Of a DNA stretch of 32,000 nt, positions 20,484-31,232 are shown piece by piece (position 1 is the stretch's first letter; every line of letters starts with the position of its first letter). A program made the position numbers and the translations under genes. Below the pieces are notes generated by a model. That model had not been told where the DNA came from, did not search any database, and saw only the letters and a list, made by a program, of their open reading frames with translations. Where the stretch lies: contig NZ_CP060715.1 of the NCBI RefSeq assembly GCF_014396165.1, forward strand, positions 510,001 through 542,000. Reading direction: 5' to 3'. This DNA comes from Erysipelothrix inopinata (GTDB lineage: Bacteria > Bacillota_I > Bacilli_A > Erysipelotrichales > Erysipelotrichaceae).

Positions 20484-20515
20484 TTGACAATTTTAAAAAT
20501 GTAAGCAATAATAAT
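20484..20515 (+). promoter_or_regulatory. promoter of the T-box-controlled met operon
   Basis: TTGACA at 20484-20489. An A/T-rich -10 candidate lies within AATAATAAT (20507-20515), 17-19 nt downstream. Confidence 0.5.
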
Positions 20516-20517
20516 GA

Positions 20518-20766
20518 AAAGCGATGAAAAGGAAAGTAATTTCTCGAAAGTTTTTCAGAGAGTCTGGGTTGGTGAGAGCAGGCAAACGGAAGAGTTATGA
20601 AAATGGCCTTGGAGCTATGAAGCTGAGACGTAAGTTTAGGTTTCGTCGGGTTCGCCCGTTAACGCGACAGAGTATGATAGTACTCGATAAGATTTATATC
20701 GTGAGATATGAATAAATTAAGGTGGTAACATGAGCACGCTCATCCTTAGGGATGGGCGTTTTTTTA
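20518..20766 (+). promoter_or_regulatory. T-box riboswitch leader, methionine (AUG) specifier, with intrinsic terminator
   Basis: Stem I elements: GCGAUGA...GGAAAGUA, the AG bay CAGAGAG, and the distal loop GGUGAGAGC. AUG triplets at 20597-20599 and 20603-20605 sit in the 3' side of the specifier loop. The T-box sequence is AAUUAAGGUGGUAACAUGAG (20715-20734). The terminator is CGCUCAUCC-UUAG-GGAUGGGCG (20737-20758) plus U7. The downstream genes are metNIQ. Confidence 0.85.
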
Positions 20767-24492: not shown

Positions 24493-24538
24493 AAAAAGTG
24501 ATGATATCCGCTATATTGCGAGTATCATCACTTTTTTA
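24493..24538. terminator. bidirectional terminator between convergent metQ and the GNAT gene
   Basis: 10-bp stem AGTGATGATA (24497-24506) / TATCATCACT (24523-24532). An A5 run lies on the left and a T6 run on the right. Confidence 0.7.
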
Positions 24539-24979
24539 CTTATACACATGACTATATTTTTCTAGATAACTTCTTTTAAAACCATTCGCCTCATAAAATT
24601 TAGAAGCCATATTATCATAACCTTCATACGGTGTCTTAAGTCTCACTTCATCAAAATGATCTTTTGCAAAATCTAACAGTAACTCCACTATTTTCTTCCC
24701 TACATTGTGACGTCGATAATCGGGATGAACATAAAGATGACGAAGCCTGCCAATCCTACTATCATGCTCATACGGATCAACTTGTATTCCTCCTACAGCA
24801 ATAACTTTGCCATCACTATTTTTAACACATAGTAATAATTCATTGTCCTCTTCGAAAGCATTGGTTCTATTATTGATTCCCACCTGAAGTTTTTTTTAAA
24901 AATTATACTCTTCATCCAAGGAAGCATTCACTAACATTTCCAAATTGTCAGATGGAGTAAAAGGTTTGATATCTAGCAT
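24536..24979 (-). pseudogene. GNAT family N-acetyltransferase interrupted by an in-frame TAA
   Basis: ATG 24979 opens MLDIKPFTPSDNLEMLVNASLDEEYNF, then TAA (24898..24896). The same frame continues KKLQVGINNRTNAFEEDNELLL...RLRHLYVHPDYRRHNVGKKIVE...FYEANGF. The ORF track shows only the GTG-initiated distal part, 24536..24883. Confidence 0.7.
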
Positions 24980-24981
24980 GA

Positions 24982-27672
24982 TTATTGCCAACTTTCTTTA
25001 CGCGTTGATTTTGTAGCTCGTTTTTCTTCATGAATTAAATTATCGTTTTTACTAATATATGACGATCTCGCTTTTATAAGTTCTTTTCGTCCCTCTTTGC
25101 TTCGTGTATAACAATATCCATACTTAATTCTGTCACGACTCAAGTTTCTAACAAATTTCTCGACACTCTTCTGGTTAATCGAAATAATTGTAGGACAAGT
25201 ATAACTCATATAATAGTTTCGTCTTTTGAAGAGTCTTTTCTTATATATTATATAACGCGGGTTTTCTATAACCGTAAAAAACTCTTCAACTGCACGAGCG
25301 TATAGTGCACTTTCTTTTTCATTCGCATTTTCCAAGTAGAAACTTGTCGTAATTTTATCATCACTCACTTTGATCACTGAATGAGCCCATCGATTAATAT
25401 GATTCATCTCTACAAGAGTATCGCAAATTGCTTTACCCAATGATTCCATTTTCTTTCTACGACCACCAAAATACCAAATAAATTTGCTGACTAAAATTGC
25501 AATAAATGAAATCAGATACTGAATCAAATAGATATTCATTCGAATTTGATTTTTTTTAGTTACGATTGAAAAGATTAGAAAAATTCCTACCGTAATAATT
25601 GCACTAATGGTGAGGCTTGATAGAATATTGTCGAAAAGAAACTCTTTATTCATTTTTATACTTTCCGGAGCTTTTACGGATACCTCATGTGTTACTTGAA
25701 CTTGAACGTTCTCATCAACTCCAACCATTTCATACCATTGAGCACGGGTTTCAGCGCGATTATTGGAACGTTCTAGCATTTCTTTATTAATGAGTTCGAC
25801 TTGCATCCGATTCAAATTATCCTTGGAAATACCTGTCCGATTTAAACCACCCGCTAAACGCGTTCCATCATAGCTTGGTCCCATGAAATTTCGGAAGCGA
25901 CGTTCCAACATCTCGTAGTCCCCACCTACATCATCAACATTATTTTTAGAAAACGGATTACCCGAAGGTGCGGGAAGTGTTACGAGATGCCATATATTCG
26001 ATACTTTCTGAGGGTTATTAGGATCCAGACGAATTGCTCTTCCACGCATTTGATTGCTTAACATATAACTTCCAACAAAACTTGCGAGAATAAGTGTATT
26101 GATTGAAGGAGAATCCCAACCTTCTCCAAGTAATGATTTAGTACCTACTAAGATTTGAACATGACCTGCTTCAAATAAATAGGTCGCAATCTTAACGATG
26201 TTCTTATTACCACCTGATATACGGTATTCACTGTATCCTGTATCATTTAATGATGTCATCGCAAATTGGAAATTGAATTCTTCCCTCTTTTTTTCAATAA
26301 CTTGTTGCAGTGTTGTTGGGAGTAAAAGCAACGAACCTGAGACCGCTCCAATACGTTCTCCTTCGATTTCTTCTCTTCGGATGAGTTCAAATATCGGTAC
26401 AGTTCCAAGAGCATTAATCGGCTCTTGTGTTCCAACAGTATTAAGATACTCTTTATGAATATAATCTGTAAGAATCAACATCCGCAACGATTGACGACGA
26501 CTTTGAAATTCATGTTTCACAATTTCTTTGATACTATCAAGCTTACCTAGAGATGATATTAAGGTTCTTGTCGTTTTTGGGTTAGCTTCAAGGTAGAGTT
26601 TATTCCCTTGCATCAAACCATATCTTTTAAAAGTAGTTATTAGCTCCTCACAGTTATCATCACCAAACTTATCTGGGTTGTTAAGTATAAATTGAAAAGC
26701 AGTTTGAATATATATTGCTTTATAAGGAGGCAATGTTCCCTTAGGAGAAACAGTACGCACCAAGTCCCGAGGACATTTAAGATCATTATGTTTCATCACC
26801 GTCAATAAGGAACTAAACTCTAATGGAGACTCGAGAATTTCATCAATCTTTAGTTCATAATGTGTCAATAACTGATACATATCAATACATTTCGTTAAGA
26901 TACCCTCTGATATTACTTCAGATACGGCTTCTTTACTCTGGGCTTCATAACTTTTTATAAACTTATTTTCAGATTCAGTTGGGAAATTGAAGTATACAAA
27001 GTCCTGATGAGGACAAAGTGTTTTTTGTTGTACAAGTTCTGGAATGCTAATCTCTTCATCAATCTCGCCACTGATTGACGTATAGTGGTCCCACTCTGTT
27101 TGGGTGCTATCAAAAGGTGGCGTTGCCGTTAATGAAATCACCGTAACATCTTTATTGATTGTGGAAATAAACTGCGTTAATGATTGTTTCCATTCCGCTT
27201 TAAGATGATGGGCTTCATCAAGACAAATAACTCCAATGTTTGCCTCTTTAATTTTCTTATAAAGATTAAAACCTTCATAGGCAAGATCTTCAGAAATATC
27301 TTCATATTCATCTTCTGAATTAATGTCAGCTTGTAGATTTAGCTTTTTATTCGCCGCATGTAAAGCTTGATAAGTAATTGAAGTAACGAGGGCTGGATTT
27401 TTAAGTGAGTAGGATACATCTGTTTCGCATCCTTCTTCCGAAAAATTATCACTCAGACGCATTCCCCATTGGTGTTGAATTGTGACTGTAGGAGAAATAA
27501 TTAGTGCAGGTTTATTAATCCTACGAATTAATTCTAGACCCAGGATTGTTTTACCACTTCCGGGTGCCGCAACGATATTAATTTTATTATCTTCGAGATA
27601 CGTTTCTGCGTGGTCGAGGACTCTTTTTTGATAGGGGCGAAATTCCCCCTTAAACTTATATTTTGAATACAT
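24982..27672 (-). CDS. SF2 DEAH-box (ResIII/XPB-like) helicase with a C-terminal two-TM hairpin and an uncharacterised basic C-terminal domain
   Basis: Motifs (numbering from the 922-aa long ORF): FRPYQ, Walker A AAPGSGKT (aa 61-68), CLDEAHH (DEAH), LTATPP, LLGEGWDSPS, QMRGRAIR. Hydrophobic segments are ILSSLTISAIITVGIFLIFSIV and IYLIQYLISFIAILVSKFIWYF (nt 25465-25629). I prefer ATG 27672 (MYSKYKFKGEF), with GGAGGA 27683..27678, over the longest-ORF start at 27750. Confidence 0.8.
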   Translation of the reverse strand: MYSKYKFKGEFRPYQKRVLDHAETYLEDNKINIVAAPGSGKTILGLELIRRINKPALIISPTVTIQHQWGMRLSDNFSEEGCETDVSYSLKNPALVTSITYQALHAANKKLNLQADINSEDEYEDISEDLAYEGFNLYKKIKEANIGVICLDEAHHLKAEWKQSLTQFISTINKDVTVISLTATPPFDSTQTEWDHYTSISGEIDEEISIPELVQQKTLCPHQDFVYFNFPTESENKFIKSYEAQSKEAVSEVISEGILTKCIDMYQLLTHYELKIDEILESPLEFSSLLTVMKHNDLKCPRDLVRTVSPKGTLPPYKAIYIQTAFQFILNNPDKFGDDNCEELITTFKRYGLMQGNKLYLEANPKTTRTLISSLGKLDSIKEIVKHEFQSRRQSLRMLILTDYIHKEYLNTVGTQEPINALGTVPIFELIRREEIEGERIGAVSGSLLLLPTTLQQVIEKKREEFNFQFAMTSLNDTGYSEYRISGGNKNIVKIATYLFEAGHVQILVGTKSLLGEGWDSPSINTLILASFVGSYMLSNQMRGRAIRLDPNNPQKVSNIWHLVTLPAPSGNPFSKNNVDDVGGDYEMLERRFRNFMGPSYDGTRLAGGLNRTGISKDNLNRMQVELINKEMLERSNNRAETRAQWYEMVGVDENVQVQVTHEVSVKAPESIKMNKEFLFDNILSSLTISAIITVGIFLIFSIVTKKNQIRMNIYLIQYLISFIAILVSKFIWYFGGRRKKMESLGKAICDTLVEMNHINRWAHSVIKVSDDKITTSFYLENANEKESALYARAVEEFFTVIENPRYIIYKKRLFKRRNYYMSYTCPTIISINQKSVEKFVRNLSRDRIKYGYCYTRSKEGRKELIKARSSYISKNDNLIHEEKRATKSTRKESWQ

Positions 27673-27756
27673 ATGCGTCCTCCATGCTTCTTCCTTATAT
27701 TTTACCCTTTTAATCTTTTGAATAGACCAATGTGAAGCATTTTTCATCATATTTTA

Positions 27757-27790
27757 TATAAAAAACCCATGAAACAATCTTCCATGGGTC
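27757..27790 (-). terminator. rho-independent terminator after tatD
   Basis: Minus-strand RNA: ACCCAUGGAA-GAUUG-UUUCAUGGGU (one mismatch), followed by UUUUUAUAU. Confidence 0.75.
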
Positions 27791-30049: not shown

Positions 30050-30598
30050 TCAAACAAAACGATCAATGAAATCAGGAACAGTCGTGGAAGCATTTTCTTG
30101 AATCTCCATTATCTCCGCACCATTCATATATGCAATGTCTCGAAGTTGGATTGCAATTTGAGTATAACGTGACGCTCCAATTACTAAGAATATATCTCCT
30201 TCGCCTAATTGGCTTACTTTCTGAATTGCTTTGGAATAGTTTGGGGCAAGATCACCATAAAGTACTGGTTTATTATAGAGTTCATGAGCATATGCCATTT
30301 CCTCATCCATAGGTAAACTACCATGGAGATGAAGCACACGTTTACTCCCTGCTTTTTCATGAAGTGAATCAACATTCATTGTGATAATATCTATGTCTGC
30401 CTTTGCCAGTGCAATATGCGCTGCATTAGGTTTTGCTTCATCAACATCTTTTTTCATCGTTGCAACGACTTCGCAATATTTCTTAGGGTGGTTGATTGCA
30501 AACTCTCGATGAAGACAATCTCGAACATCAGGACGATCCATAAAGGTATCAATTCCTGATTCTTTGCTTATCCCAGCTCCTGTAAATGCTAATATCAT
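30050..30598 (-). CDS. Sir2-family (CobB-like) NAD-dependent deacylase homologue lacking the zinc-ribbon module
   Basis: 182 aa. Motifs FTGAGISKESGIDTF, KPNAAHIALAK and ITMNVDSLHEKAGSKRVLHLHGS align with CobB motifs. No Cys pairs occur between LHGS and VLYGD. SD AGGAGGGA overlaps the stop of the upstream gene. TGA stop. Confidence 0.8.
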   Translation of the reverse strand: MILAFTGAGISKESGIDTFMDRPDVRDCLHREFAINHPKKYCEVVATMKKDVDEAKPNAAHIALAKADIDIITMNVDSLHEKAGSKRVLHLHGSLPMDEEMAYAHELYNKPVLYGDLAPNYSKAIQKVSQLGEGDIFLVIGASRYTQIAIQLRDIAYMNGAEIMEIQENASTTVPDFIDRFV

Positions 30599-30608
30599 TC
30601 AATCCCTC

Positions 30609-31232
30609 CTAATCCATAAAATGTACTTTTCTTTGAATTATTTCATAATCACTATTCAGCTTGTATTCAACTATCACTTCATAGGGATCTGCTTTGGAGT
30701 CTAGAAATTCAAGACGAGACTCTACCAGCACTGCATCATCTTTATTTTGTACAAAAACACTTTGATTTGATAGTGGTAAGGTACTTTTTAATATCCAAGT
30801 TGCTCCATACAGTTTTGCCTTCATTACAGCATCATCAGTTTCCGAAGCCAATGTAATCCATCCATTATCAGTTTTTCTCACATTCAGGCGTTGCTCTACT
30901 GTAACGCACGTTCTAAATTTTGGAATATAGATAGCATCCTTAAATTTAAGAAAAGAGTCATTCATTGTTTCATCTTCTATCGTAGCTTTAACCTTTTTTT
31001 CTGCAACTGCAGCATCAACATTACATCTTCCAATACTTTCATTGAGTGTTCGTTGTGTTCGATAACTGTCATAAACTGGTAAAGAAAGAATCGTAATGAT
31101 TGCGACAATCACCAATCCATCTCTAATTTTACTAAAGTTCTTTTTTAATGTTTCAATCTCATAACGATCATTAATTAGTATCATTGCAAGATATATCGAT
31201 AGTGTGATCAATAATATTAATAGTATTTTCAT
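30609..31232 (-). CDS. hypothetical two-TM membrane protein with an approximately 150-aa extracytoplasmic domain
   Basis: 207 aa. TM1 is ILLILLITLSIYLAMILI and TM2 is LVIVAIITILSLPVY. SD GGAGAA precedes ATG 31232. No family recognised. Confidence 0.7.
   Translation of the reverse strand: MKILLILLITLSIYLAMILINDRYEIETLKKNFSKIRDGLVIVAIITILSLPVYDSYRTQRTLNESIGRCNVDAAVAEKKVKATIEDETMNDSFLKFKDAIYIPKFRTCVTVEQRLNVRKTDNGWITLASETDDAVMKAKLYGATWILKSTLPLSNQSVFVQNKDDAVLVESRLEFLDSKADPYEVIVEYKLNSDYEIIQRKVHFMD

What the first reader, a model, noticed from the sequence alone, without database searches (positions are those of the whole stretch)
24536..27790. Membrane-anchored SF2 DEAH helicase with an unknown basic C-terminal domain, abutted to a GNAT gene, as a terminator-bounded two-gene unit
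Seen in sequence:
- The roughly 900-aa ORF has a complete SF2 helicase core: FRPYQ, AAPGSGKT, DEAH, TATPP, GEGWDSP, QMRGRAIR.
- There is a long insert of about 300 aa between motif III and the second RecA lobe.
- About 120 aa after motif VI come two strongly hydrophobic segments (nt 25465-25629).
- These are followed by an approximately 160-aa Lys/Arg/Tyr-rich tail (NPRYIIYKKRLFKRRNYYMSY...YGYCYTRSKEGRK).
- The unit has its own SD. It sits between the tatD terminator (27757-27790) and a bidirectional terminator (24493-24538).
- The GNAT ATG lies 2 nt after the helicase stop.

Inference: a two-helix hairpin would tether both the motor and the tail to the cytoplasmic face of the membrane. The nucleic-acid helicases I can recall are soluble, so this is unusual. 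Helicase-plus-effector pairs inserted between housekeeping genes are typical of anti-phage or other conflict systems. I do not recognise this architecture as any named system.
Basis: partly seen in the sequence, partly recalled or inferred. Interest (0 to 1): 0.75.

Follow-up and report, generated by a model that had tools for sequence, protein, structure and literature searches.

The report
Membrane-anchored XPB-like helicase, orphan family
This gene encodes an intact member of a large, unstudied family of DNA-motor-like proteins that carry a membrane anchor and a tail domain of unknown fold; the acetyltransferase gene next to it is a decaying passenger, not a partner.

Summary
Window 24982-27750 (-) encodes an SF2 ATPase with all core motifs. 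It has two strongly hydrophobic helices (aa 702-761) and a basic C-terminal domain of about 155 aa. Two strong terminators bound the unit.

Corrections:
- The likely start is Met27 (896 aa).
- The motif III to RecA2 gap is about 210 aa, not 300.
- The "tail" is a folded, highly conserved domain.
- The GNAT gene carries an in-frame TAA at codon 28.

The protein belongs to a large family: at least 590 species genomes and 1076 clusters at 50% identity. Members occur in Bacillota, Pseudomonadota, Verrucomicrobiota, Bacteroidota and Thorarchaeota. The same architecture runs end to end.

The core resembles XPB, Hef and FANCM. The C-terminal domain has no Pfam, PDB or BFVD match. It evolves under the tightest constraint of any part of the protein (dN/dS 0.03).

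The helicase-GNAT pairing is not conserved: 3 of 126 flanking genes are GNATs. The GNAT is broken in two different ways in two near-identical strains. Neighbours are otherwise unrelated, and there is no defence-island signal and no PADLOC hit.

In Erysipelothrix the tatD/met junction is a variable cargo site.

Best reading: a solitary, membrane-tethered duplex-nucleic-acid translocase whose physiological role is unknown. It is a new architectural variant of a known enzyme class.

The parts
24982..27750 (-). Helicase ORF, longest reading (922 aa, stop TAA at 24984-24982). The probable true CDS is 24982..27672 (896 aa).
   Evidence: dN/dS is 0.067 against L001.
27670..27683 (-). Probable real start: SD GGAGGA (27683-27678), a 5-nt spacer, then ATG (27672-27670).
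   Evidence: Sequence. Homologues P0002 and P0003 and the A1 alignment start at this Met.
26980..27663 (-). RecA-like lobe 1 (aa 30-257). It holds the Q motif FRPYQ, motif I AAPGSGKT, motif II DEAHH and motif III TATPP-YD.
   Evidence: Pfam ResIII 2.4e-17. Archaeal XPB/Rad25 is the only PDB sequence match: 3e-6 with the single sequence, 1.8e-10 with the profile. AF2 secondary structure.
26488..26976 (-). All-alpha domain (aa 259-421) inserted between the two RecA lobes.
   Evidence: AF2 model with pLDDT 84-94. Conserved along the family. Foldseek places the protein with XPB, Hef, FANCM and RIG-I-like helicases, which carry an insert at this position.
25951..26487 (-). RecA-like lobe 2 (aa 422-600). 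It holds motif V GEGWDSP and motif VI QMRGRAIR.
   Evidence: Weak Pfam Helicase_C match. Invariant columns. AF2.
25672..25926 (-). Conserved alpha/beta domain after motif VI (aa 609-693). It has no family match.
   Evidence: AF2 pLDDT 80-93. Invariant residues include D611, R618, F619, P625, R638, N655 and W672. dN/dS 0.068.
25468..25647 (-). Two hydrophobic helices (aa 702-730 and 739-761), read as a membrane hairpin with both ends in the cytoplasm.
   Evidence: KD maxima of 2.44 and 2.02. AF2 predicts two long helices with pLDDT 54-69. The feature is present in all 72 full-length homologues of the first set. 64 of 76 homologues have two uncharged runs of at least 15 residues or one of at least 38, and the C-flank net charge is +2.7. 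dN/dS 0.13.
24985..25461 (-). Family-specific basic C-terminal domain (aa 764-922). Motifs: E823, NPRY 830-833, SYxCP 849-853, YTR..GR 881-888, and a terminal Trp.
   Evidence: AF2 pLDDT 88.6 and pTM 0.82. Net charge is +6 to +18 in 26 members. No Pfam match, no PDB sequence match and no Foldseek match (best E 0.56 in PDB, 0.46 in BFVD). 1076 clusters carry it, always at the C-terminus. dN/dS 0.028.
24536..24979 (-). GNAT acetyltransferase pseudogene. The ATG is 2 nt after the helicase stop, and there is an in-frame TAA at codon 28 (24898-24896).
   Evidence: Pfam Acetyltransf_7 at 4.8e-13 and Acetyltransf_1 at 3.2e-12 on the distal 115 aa. The same codon is CTA in L001 and TTA in L087. dN/dS 0.20.
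27764..27790 (-). Intrinsic terminator of tatD, immediately upstream of the helicase.
   Evidence: -17.6 kcal/mol, z -4.3.
24493..24536 (.). Bidirectional terminator hairpin shared by the GNAT/helicase unit and the convergent metQ. It has an A-run on one side and a T-run on the other.
   Evidence: -22.5 and -24.5 kcal/mol on the two strands, z -6.8 and -7.7, with 0 of 200 shuffles reaching this.

Best explanation
The helicase gene is a solitary, functional, chromosomally inherited member of a large uncharacterised family of SF2 ATPases. The fixed architecture is: XPB-like RecA lobe 1, an all-helical insert, RecA lobe 2, a small alpha/beta domain, a two-helix hydrophobic hairpin, and a basic C-terminal domain of about 150 aa and unknown fold.

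Shown here:
- the architecture;
- its conservation from Bacillota to Thorarchaeota;
- strong purifying selection on every part, strongest on the C-terminal domain;
- the absence of any conserved gene partner.

Inferred mechanism:
- The hairpin inserts into the cytoplasmic membrane with both ends inside. The motor and the basic domain are therefore held together at the inner face of the membrane.
- The motor works as XPB, Hef and FANCM do. It tracks along duplex nucleic acid, most probably DNA, using ATP, rather than acting as a processive strand separator.
- Because the motor is fixed to the membrane, it would reel, loop or twist the duplex relative to that fixed point, or strip bound proteins from it.
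- The basic domain supplies a second nucleic-acid contact or a substrate-recognition site next to the motor.

The GNAT gene is an unrelated passenger in a variable cargo site between tatD and the met operon, and it is already inactivated.

My probabilities: architecture and solitary status about 0.9; membrane insertion about 0.8; duplex DNA translocase about 0.55; nucleic-acid binding by the C-terminal domain about 0.5. The physiological role is open; candidates include handling membrane-proximal or incoming DNA, repair, and defence. The overall confidence given (0.45) is for the whole statement including the inferred mechanism.
For: - Core motifs and the ResIII match are.
- Archaeal XPB is the only PDB relative by sequence. 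NCBIfam XPB matches at 1.2e-8 on aa 34-136.
- The full-length AF2 model has pLDDT 80.6 and pTM 0.75. Foldseek gives XPB at 4e-15 (XPB-Bax1-DNA target-normalised TM-score 0.62), and Hef and FANCM at 0.50-0.53.
- Homologues cover 96% of the length at about 40% identity.
- At least 590 species-level genomes encode a relative.
- 1076 clusters at 50% identity carry the C-terminal domain, always at the C-terminus.
- The hairpin is present in all 72 full-length homologues of the first set and in 80 of 110 motif-bearing hits of a second, more distant set. That set includes Sphingomonas, Lentimonas, Sporosarcina and Thorarchaeota.
- Flank charges fit an in/in topology.
- The C-terminal domain has net charge +6 to +18, while the motor body averages -11.
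- dN/dS is 0.067 overall, 0.13 for the hairpin and 0.028 for the C-terminal domain.
- A Rhodobacterales clade keeps the motor and the C-terminal domain but lacks the hairpin (22 of the 110 motif-bearing hits). Motor and C-terminal domain therefore form the functional core, and the hairpin is a localisation device.
- There is no conserved neighbour.
- The GNAT is decaying.
Against: - No TM predictor such as DeepTMHMM could be run. The topology rests on hydropathy, flank charge and AF2 helices.
- No direct evidence separates a DNA substrate from an RNA one. The longest Foldseek alignments are to dsRNA-sensing RIG-I-like helicases.
- The C-terminal domain has no detectable relative, so nucleic-acid binding rests only on its charge and position. 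A basic domain next to a membrane could instead bind anionic lipids.
- The invariant E, R, Y and T residues could be catalytic rather than binding residues.
- Inter-domain confidence (PAE) and coordinates of the model were not available.
Confidence: 0.45

Rival explanations
1. This is a single-gene anti-phage or anti-plasmid system. The membrane-bound helicase meets foreign nucleic acid at its point of entry. It then either blocks or degrades that nucleic acid, with the C-terminal domain acting as a new effector or nuclease, or it triggers membrane damage through the hairpin as an abortive-infection response.
For: - Distribution within Erysipelothrix is patchy. The gene is absent from the syntenic site in E. 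rhusiopathiae, strain HDW6C and GCA_009828735.
- The gene sits at a variable cargo junction.
- The architecture is sensor-like: motor, insert and basic C-terminal domain, as in RIG-I-like receptors.
- The C-terminal domain has invariant E, R, Y and T residues that could be catalytic.
- One Paracoccus locus lies beside HipA and T6SS-effector-like genes.
Against: - There is no significant PADLOC match; the best are PbeA at 7.5e-5 on motif V-VI only and the 2TM effector at 0.07.
- 276 neighbours in up to 80 species show only scattered single PADLOC hits and no assembled system.
- Contexts are metabolic or housekeeping.
- Synteny is stable across four Clostridia species.
- Purifying selection is strong and uniform, with no fast-evolving surface.
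- The family is nearly absent from plasmids (2 full-length copies in 72,556 records, both on megaplasmids). The two 'phage' records are bacterial fragments.
- A clade functions without the hairpin.
Confidence: 0.2
2. This is a membrane-localised RNA helicase or translocase. It would act on duplex RNA or on RNA associated with the membrane, such as membrane-protein mRNAs or a degradosome-like assembly. In that reading it is a prokaryotic counterpart of the RIG-I/Dicer helicase architecture.
For: - The longest Foldseek alignments (715-735 columns, E around 1e-13) are to MDA5, LGP2, RIG-I, DRH-1 and Dicer helicases. These share the Hel1-insert-Hel2 layout plus a basic C-terminal domain.
- An rRNA m5U methyltransferase (TRAM + tRNA_U5-meth_tr) is the immediate neighbour in 4 of 80 loci.
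Against: - Sequence-level relatives are the DNA enzymes XPB/Rad25.
- Motif II DEAH and motif III TATPP, with an acidic residue where XPB has its RED motif, are typical of DNA translocases of the ResIII group (established knowledge of SF2 motifs).
- Query-normalised TM-scores to the RIG-I-like helicases are only about 0.3, with rmsd 15-20 A.
Confidence: 0.12
3. The role is linked to envelope stress. The helicase would act together with membrane-organising or stress proteins of the SPFH/flotillin and XpaC/TelA type, coupling membrane state to DNA or RNA transactions.
For: - SPFH (Band_7_1) genes lie within 10 kb in 7 of 80 Firmicutes loci, in about 4 independent arrangements. In L013 and L017 they lie directly downstream on the same strand.
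- Flotillin and YqiJ/NfeD lie 2-4 kb upstream in Rhodovulum.
- In the hairpin-less Rhodobacterales clade, a conserved gene of 121-146 aa is translationally coupled to the helicase. It weakly matches the soluble part of XpaC, PF10112, at E 2e-5, 0.05 and 0.07.
- XpaC/TelA are reported as daptomycin-resistance mediators in E. faecium (PMC6811118, seen).
Against: - The associations are weak and partly reflect shared ancestry.
- Most loci have none of these genes, including this window.
- The PF10112 matches are below the gathering score.
- The small partner has no homologue in the 80 Firmicutes loci and no profile similarity to the helicase.
Confidence: 0.08
4. One reading: helicase and GNAT form a two-gene functional unit, a motor plus an acetyltransferase effector, of the conflict-system type.
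For: - The GNAT ATG is 2 nt after the helicase stop.
- The two genes share one pair of terminators.
- The pairing also occurs in L001 and L088.
Against: - The pairing is confined to close Erysipelothrix relatives. Only 3 of 126 neighbours elsewhere are GNATs, and none clusters with this one.
- The GNAT has a nonsense codon here and a different lesion, an internal deletion of the acetyl-CoA motif region, in a strain whose helicase is 99% identical.
- GNAT nucleotide identity between these two strains is 89.6%, against 99.4% for the helicase.
- dN/dS is 0.20 for the GNAT against 0.067 for the helicase.
Confidence: 0.03
5. The hydrophobic hairpin does not span the membrane. It would be monotopic, or buried in an oligomer interface, and the enzyme would be effectively soluble or only peripherally attached.
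For: - Bacteroidota and Paenibacillus members have weaker hydrophobicity: KD below 1.6 in Chondrinema, and a longer polar loop in Paenibacillus.
- One clade lacks the hairpin altogether.
- The inter-helix loop of the window protein carries K, K and R.
Against: - KD 19-residue means reach 2.0-3.4 over 40-55 uncharged residues in most members. This is far above any other segment of the protein.
- The sequence is unconserved while hydrophobicity is conserved, which is the signature of lipid-facing helices.
- AF2 confidence for the two helices is low, unlike all the flanking domains.
Confidence: 0.1

Closest known systems
Archaeal/eukaryotic XPB (Rad25/ERCC3/Ssl2) DNA translocase
   Same: - It is the only solved relative by sequence, covering motifs I-Ib of lobe 1 (NCBIfam 1.2e-8).
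- It is the best Foldseek E-value and the best target-normalised TM-score, 0.62 to the XPB-Bax1-DNA complex.
- It has a DExH motif II and a TAT motif III followed by an acidic residue, and an insert between the lobes.
- XPB also acts as an anchored duplex translocase (established knowledge; PMC13024598 listed).
   Different: - This protein has no damage-recognition domain in front of lobe 1.
- It has PYD where XPB has RED.
- Its helical insert is far larger.
- It scores 34 bits against the family cut-off of 610.
- It has an extra alpha/beta domain, a membrane hairpin and a new C-terminal domain.
- It has no Bax1-like partner.
Hef / FANCM / RIG-I-like helicases (SF2 with a helical domain inserted between the RecA lobes)
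   Same: - The overall layout is lobe 1, helical insert, lobe 2 and then a C-terminal accessory domain.
- Foldseek E-values are 1e-14 to 1e-11.
- RIG-I-like receptors also end in a basic substrate-recognition domain.
   Different: - There is no sequence-level match.
- Query-normalised TM-scores are only about 0.3.
- The C-terminal domain resembles neither the RIG-I C-terminal domain nor the ERCC4 nuclease.
- This protein is membrane-anchored and has no CARD or nuclease modules.
FtsK/SpoIIIE and type IV coupling proteins (membrane-anchored DNA translocases)
   Same: They share the concept of an ATP-driven nucleic-acid motor fixed to the cytoplasmic membrane by TM helices.
   Different: - Those are hexameric RecA/AAA-like pumps with N-terminal TM segments.
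- This is an SF2 two-lobe motor with an internal hairpin near the C-terminus.
- There is no homology.
Helicase-containing anti-phage systems (Zorya ZorD, Hachiman HamB, Druantia DruE, DISARM DrmA, Hna, type I/III restriction Res subunits)
   Same: They share an SF2 ResIII-type motor. Some work together with membrane components.
   Different: - There is no significant PADLOC match.
- There are no partner genes.
- There is no defence-island context.
- There is no methyltransferase or recognisable nuclease.

Membership tests
Superfamily 2 helicase/translocase (ResIII / DEAD-like N lobe plus Helicase_C lobe) | Motifs Q, I, Ia, II (DExH), III, V and VI, arranged in two RecA-like lobes | tested here: met
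   All motifs can be read in the translation and are invariant in 34 homologues. Pfam gives ResIII 2.4e-17, DEAD 4e-10 and a weak Helicase_C match. AF2 shows two alpha/beta lobes.
XPB/Rad25 (NCBIfam NF045503 equivalog) | Whole-protein score above the curated cut-off, an N-terminal damage-recognition domain, the RED motif and a short thumb insert | tested here: not met
   The score is 34 bits against a cut-off of 610, and only aa 34-136 match. The protein begins directly at the Q motif. It has TATPPYD instead of TAT..RED.
Hef/FANCM/RIG-I-like helicases | A helical domain inserted between the RecA lobes, plus a family-specific C-terminal module (ERCC4 nuclease, or the zinc-binding RIG-I C-terminal domain) | tested here: inconclusive
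   An insert is present at the equivalent place and Foldseek E-values are about 1e-13 to 1e-11. However, there is no sequence match, and the C-terminal module matches nothing in the PDB.
Known anti-phage defence systems (PADLOC-DB 2.0) | A significant match to a system component, together with the system's other genes nearby | tested here: not met
   The best matches are local and weak: 7.5e-5 on motif V-VI, and 0.07 to the 2TM effector. The GNAT has no match. Neighbours in other genomes form no system. DefenseFinder could not be run.
Defence-island gene (guilt by association) | Homologues sit next to known defence genes far more often than chance would give | tested here: not met
   276 proteins at positions +/-1 to +/-3 in up to 80 species were scanned. 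Only scattered single-model hits appeared, mostly to models that also match housekeeping homologues. 132 different Pfam families were found among 126 immediate neighbours.
Type I/III restriction-modification Res/HsdR subunit | An adjacent Mod/HsdM methyltransferase and a PD-(D/E)xK nuclease motif in the same protein | tested here: not met
   There is no methyltransferase in the unit. There is no nuclease family match. The only NCBIfam match is local, on aa 533-590 at 9e-5.
Integral membrane protein with a two-helix hairpin (N-in/C-in) | Two hydrophobic spans of about 20 residues, positive-inside flanks, and conservation of hydrophobicity rather than sequence | tested here: met
   A dedicated predictor (DeepTMHMM/TOPCONS) and experiments were not available.
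GNAT N-acetyltransferase (the downstream gene) | The Acetyltransf_1/7 fold with the acetyl-CoA motif, and an intact reading frame | tested here: inconclusive
   The domain matches at 4.8e-13 and 3.2e-12. The frame carries TAA at codon 28, where L001 has CTA and L087 has TTA. It is a member by descent but probably a pseudogene.
Conserved helicase-GNAT operon | The pairing is retained across homologues of the helicase | tested here: not met
   The pairing is found only in L001, L088, L087 and the window. Only 3 of 126 neighbours elsewhere are GNATs.

The most novel reading that the evidence does not exclude
The family is an ancient class of membrane-tethered XPB/RIG-I-like nucleic-acid motors, found in several bacterial phyla and in Asgard archaea. 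Its new basic C-terminal domain recognises, or acts on, nucleic acid that arrives at or lies along the membrane. That would make it a previously unrecognised mechanism of surveillance, uptake control or membrane-chromosome coupling carried out by one polypeptide.
Probability: 0.2. Interest if true: 0.85.

Novelty: new variant of a known kind. Interest (0 to 1): 0.58.

Why it matters
- SF2 helicases are among the best-studied enzymes, yet I found no described bacterial SF2 motor that is an integral membrane protein (literature searches).
- This family is large: at least 590 species and 1076 clusters at 50% identity. It reaches from gut Clostridia to Thorarchaeota and keeps one rigid architecture.
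- It ends in a confidently predicted domain with no relative in Pfam, the PDB or BFVD.
- Fixing a duplex translocase to a membrane changes what it can do. Like XPB held in TFIIH, it could generate torsion, loops or directional transport.
- The family therefore offers a tractable entry to how prokaryotes handle nucleic acid at the membrane. Nature has already made a hairpin-less soluble version in Rhodobacterales that is suitable for biochemistry.
- The case is also a caution. Tight gene spacing and shared terminators here made two unrelated genes look like a system.

Tried and rejected
- **Named families.** Pfam, NCBIfam and PADLOC on both proteins gave only generic helicase and GNAT matches.
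- **C-terminal domain.** All of the following were negative:
  - Pfam at E up to 5 on 26 members, where no family recurred;
  - a profile search against PDB sequences;
  - Foldseek against PDB and BFVD.
- **Fold ideas from secondary structure.** I considered a GIY-YIG-like or PD-(D/E)xK nuclease, and a ferredoxin-like beta-alpha-beta-beta-alpha-beta core, on the basis of secondary-structure order and the conserved E, R and Y residues. Nuclease membership was rejected: the residue order does not fit and Foldseek found no such hit. The ferredoxin-like idea could not be checked without coordinates.
- **SOS regulation.** No Cheo/LexA box (GAAC-N4-GTTC) occurs within 400 nt upstream in 62 loci.
- **Mobile-element carriage.** There are two full-length plasmid hits, both on megaplasmids in housekeeping contexts. 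Two 'Bacteriophage sp.' records turned out to be bacterial fragments carrying ABC transporter, NUDIX and CAAX protease genes.
- **Hairpin origin.** I first read the hairpin as a Firmicutes-specific insertion, from the Tritonibacter homologue. I reversed this after the wider search showed the hairpin in other phyla and in archaea. The hairpin-less state is a loss in one Rhodobacterales clade.
- **Is the small Rhodobacterales partner a split-off piece of the Firmicutes protein?** hhalign probability was 0.05, and hmmsearch found nothing in the 80 loci.
- **GNAT frameshift in the poly-A run.** Rejected: the two parts are in the same frame, and the lesion is a nonsense codon.
- **Literature.** Searches for membrane-anchored bacterial helicases, bacterial RIG-I-like helicases, XPB-like/COG1061 proteins and XpaC-helicase links found nothing on this family.

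Full report
**1. The observation**

The ORF at 24982..27750 on the minus strand encodes 922 aa. Pfam finds ResIII (2.4e-17, aa 36-212), DEAD, and a weak Helicase_C match (aa 522-575). Nothing matches beyond residue 600.

Kyte-Doolittle 19-residue means reach 2.44 and 2.02 in two segments (aa 705-733 and 736-761, nt 25468-25647). No other window in the protein exceeds 1.36. The last 157 residues are 21.5% Lys+Arg.

The unit is bounded by two hairpins:
- the tatD terminator at 27790-27764 (-17.6 kcal/mol, z -4.3);
- a hairpin at 24493-24536 that folds equally well on both strands (-22.5 and -24.5 kcal/mol, z about -7) and is shared with the convergent metQ.

The GNAT ATG at 24979 lies 2 nt after the helicase stop codon.

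Four corrections are needed:
- The first ATG (27750) sits 4 nt after the terminator's T-run and has no SD. The ATG at 27672 has GGAGGA 5 nt upstream, and homologues start there. The protein is therefore probably 896 aa.
- The distance from motif III to the second lobe is about 210 aa. Of this, about 165 aa form an all-helical insert.
- The "tail" is a folded domain.
- The GNAT is interrupted by an in-frame TAA at codon 28, not by a frameshift.

**2. The protein belongs to a large family with one fixed architecture**

- The word-indexed protein search returned more than 5000 hits. The best 120 are all 870-927 aa long, cover 94-100% of the query (96% in most), and are 39-48% identical outside the closest relatives.
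Most are Clostridia and Bacilli. Acholeplasma, Izemoplasmatales, Coriobacteriales and Bacteroidota are also represented.
- A profile of the C-terminal 157 aa, searched against 1.84 billion representatives, found 1076 clusters. Among the 150 best hits listed, the domain lies at the very C-terminus. Full-length proteins are about 850-985 aa and the shorter hits look like contig-end fragments.
- A search seeded from a distant alphaproteobacterial member extended the family. It added Sphingomonas, Lentimonas, Sporosarcina, Polycladidibacter and several Thorarchaeota, at 31-35% identity and up to 98-100% coverage.

**3. Anatomy**

The full-length AlphaFold2 model (pLDDT 80.6, pTM 0.75) gives these parts:

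| Part | Residues |
|---|---|
| RecA lobe 1 | 30-257 |
| All-alpha insert | 259-421 |
| RecA lobe 2 | 422-600 |
| Alpha/beta domain | 609-693 |
| Two long helices (pLDDT only 54-69) | 702-730 and 739-761 |
| Alpha/beta C-terminal domain | 764-915 |

By sequence, the only solved relatives are archaeal XPB/Rad25, matching lobe 1 (3e-6 with the single sequence, 1.8e-10 with the profile). NCBIfam's XPB model matches aa 34-136 at 1.2e-8, but with 34 bits against a cut-off of 610.

Foldseek ranks XPB first (4e-15). Target-normalised TM-scores are 0.62 to the XPB-Bax1-DNA complex and 0.50-0.53 to Hef and FANCM. Long but loose alignments to MDA5, RIG-I, LGP2 and Dicer helicases follow. The motor is therefore XPB/Hef-like in form but is not a member of the XPB family.

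**4. The hairpin**

- In the 34-sequence alignment the two helices are not conserved in sequence but are uniformly hydrophobic.
- All 72 full-length homologues from the genome scan have a strongly hydrophobic stretch 60-130 residues upstream of the NPRY motif, with KD maxima typically 2.0-3.4.
- 64 of 76 have two uncharged runs of at least 15 residues or one of at least 38. The 15 residues after the hairpin carry a mean net charge of +2.7, and the 15 before it carry +0.5.
- Since the ATP-dependent motor must be cytoplasmic, this fits an in/in hairpin that also keeps the C-terminal domain in the cytoplasm.
- In the second, more distant set, 80 of 110 motif-bearing proteins have KD of at least 1.6. 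These include archaeal and proteobacterial members.
- 22 proteins in that set have no hydrophobic segment at all. Twenty-one are 759-790 aa long; those that carry a taxon name are Rhodobacterales. The other is Bhargavaea, 852 aa.
- The hairpin is therefore the family norm and has been lost in one clade. This shows that the motor and the C-terminal domain are the functional core and the hairpin is a localisation device.

**5. The C-terminal domain**

Modelled alone it is confident (pLDDT 88.6, pTM 0.82; secondary-structure order alpha-beta-beta-alpha-beta-beta-alpha-beta-alpha-alpha).

Invariant positions in Firmicutes are E823, P831-R832-Y833, S849, C852-P853, T882-R883, G887 and S897. Across the distant members, the NPRY and YTR..GR motifs, a Pro, and a terminal Trp persist. 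The Ser and Cys do not.

The domain is strongly basic in every member checked (net +6 to +18). The motor body averages -11.

It has no relative that I could detect:
- no Pfam match at E up to 5 in 26 members;
- no PDB sequence match;
- Foldseek best E of 0.56 in the PDB and 0.46 in BFVD.

It is also the most constrained part of the protein. dN/dS is 0.028, against 0.067 overall and 0.13 for the hairpin, in the comparison with the 86%-identical orthologue.

**6. Genomic context: the helicase is a solitary gene**

I clustered all ORFs in 80 loci with up to 10 kb on each side. No neighbour family is shared by more than a few loci apart from generic ABC ATPases (14 loci), and the immediate neighbours are almost all singletons. 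The 126 immediate neighbours fall into 132 Pfam families. GNATs account for 3.

PADLOC on 276 neighbours at positions +/-1 to +/-3 gave only scattered single hits and no system. Annotated contexts in Paenibacillus, Chondrinema, Sphingomonas and a Thorarchaeote are metabolic, regulatory or transport genes.

The family is rare on plasmids: two full-length copies, both on megaplasmids. The two "phage" records that match are bacterial fragments. No LexA box precedes the gene in 62 loci.

**7. The GNAT is a passenger, and the site is a cargo junction**

A GNAT follows the helicase only in the window and its closest relatives: L001 (86%), L088 (80%) and L087 (99%).

In the window it has TAA at codon 28, where L001 has CTA and L087 has TTA. 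L087 instead lacks about 55 codons that include the acetyl-CoA motif region. Its similarity to the window ends at about 24768.

Between the window and L087, the helicase differs at 17 of 2688 nt. The first 211 nt of the GNAT differ at 22 positions. GNAT dN/dS against L001 is 0.20.

The same junction holds different cargo in related genomes:

| Genome | What lies between tatD and the met genes |
|---|---|
| E. rhusiopathiae | Nothing: tatD is followed 30 bp later by convergent metQ |
| Strain HDW6C | A HAD hydrolase and a small ORF |
| GCA_009828735 | Two BadF/BcrA ATPases and an FtsJ methyltransferase |
| L001 and L088 | An ANT(9)-like nucleotidyltransferase ahead of the helicase |

The cargo at this site, however, is heterogeneous and not defence-like.

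**8. Mechanism**

Shown here:
- an intact SF2 motor;
- a hairpin conserved for hydrophobicity only;
- a highly constrained basic terminal domain;
- no obligate partner.

Inferred:
- The protein is held at the inner face of the membrane.
- It tracks on duplex nucleic acid as XPB, Hef and FANCM do. I favour DNA (about 0.55) because the sequence-level relatives are DNA enzymes and motifs II and III are of the DNA-translocase type.
- A fixed motor would reel, loop or twist its substrate, or clear proteins from it.
- The basic domain would add a second contact or select the substrate.

The physiological role cannot be settled with these data. I rank the possibilities as follows:

| Reading | Probability |
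|---|---|
| Non-defence handling of membrane-proximal DNA | Most likely |
| Single-gene defence or surveillance | 0.2 |
| An RNA substrate | 0.12 |
| An envelope-stress link | 0.08 |

The envelope-stress link rests on three weak leads:
- SPFH genes lie near the helicase in 7 of 80 Firmicutes loci.
- Flotillin and YqiJ lie near it in Rhodovulum.
- A conserved XpaC-like gene is translationally coupled to it in the hairpin-less clade.

**9. Comparison and novelty**

The protein works like an anchored XPB/Hef-type translocase but fails the XPB membership test. It is not in PADLOC, Pfam (beyond the generic motor domains) or NCBIfam. Sources name it only "DEAD/DEAH box helicase family protein", "superfamily II DNA or RNA helicase" or, misleadingly, "restriction endonuclease subunit R".

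Five literature searches found nothing on a membrane-integral bacterial SF2 helicase of this kind.

I rate it a new architectural variant of a known enzyme class. It is of moderate to good interest because of its breadth, its rigid architecture and its orphan domain. The two-gene "system" reading should be dropped.

Noticed in passing
L083 4552-4989, L091 5639-6004, L094 6564-7004, L095 6551-6988: In the Rhodobacterales clade whose helicases lack the hydrophobic hairpin, a conserved gene of 121-146 aa sits directly upstream. It overlaps the helicase start by 4 nt in three of four genomes. The four copies are 41-64% identical to each other. They match the soluble C-terminal part of PF10112 (XpaC) weakly, at E 2e-5, 0.05 and 0.07. 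The gene is absent from the 80 Firmicutes loci. Loss of the anchor therefore coincides with gain of a partner.
   Followed up: partly
L013, L017, L021, L003, L012, L072 and L023 (within 10 kb of the helicase); L091 1959-4421: SPFH-family genes recur near the helicase. Band_7_1 occurs in 7 of 80 Firmicutes loci. It lies directly downstream on the same strand in L013 and L017. In L021 it is followed by zinc-ribbon and TPM genes. Flotillin plus YqiJ/NfeD lie upstream in Rhodovulum, and a divergent DUF4178 pair lies upstream in Tritonibacter. The association is weak, partly due to shared synteny, and unexplained.
   Followed up: partly
P0433-P0457; L093: Several Candidatus Thorarchaeota (Asgard archaea) MAGs encode full-length members (907-970 aa, 31-34% identical to the Tritonibacter query). 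Those in which the C-terminal motif was found also have the hairpin. Whether this reflects ancient presence or transfer from bacteria was not tested.
   Followed up: no
L001 9134-9880; L088 845-1594: The closest relatives carry an ANT(9)-like aminoglycoside nucleotidyltransferase between tatD and the helicase (NCBIfam 241 bits against a cut-off of 340). The window lacks it; there tatD and the helicase ORF are 115 bp apart.
   Followed up: partly
window 24768-24979, compared with L087 4265-4715: Between two strains whose helicases differ at 0.6% of nucleotides, the adjacent GNAT remnant differs at 10.4%. All similarity ends inside the GNAT, at about window 24768. This marks a recombination or deletion breakpoint at the edge of the cargo site.
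   Followed up: partly
window 20515-20750 (+): A T-box leader (Rfam RF00230, 116.5 bits, E 2e-25) lies upstream of the M20 peptidase-metN-metI-metQ operon. That operon converges on the helicase/GNAT unit.
   Followed up: no
MT836806.1 (L089) and MT838455.1 (L090): Two GenBank 'UNVERIFIED: Bacteriophage sp.' contigs from human faecal viromes carry a family member. Around it they encode ABC transporter, NUDIX, CAAX protease and HTH genes, so they look like bacterial chromosomal fragments.
   Followed up: yes
L051, L054, L079 (upstream) and L077 (downstream): A TRAM plus tRNA_U5-meth_tr methyltransferase (RlmCD/RumA-like) is the immediate same-strand neighbour of the helicase in 4 of 80 loci, on either side. 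This may be inherited synteny with a local rearrangement.
   Followed up: no
L084 5355-6469, L085 6018-6569, L086 4426-5534: One or two SIR2-family genes lie just upstream of mnmE in three Erysipelothrix genomes. The corresponding window region (30050-31232) has ORFs of 182 and 207 aa that were not examined.
   Followed up: no
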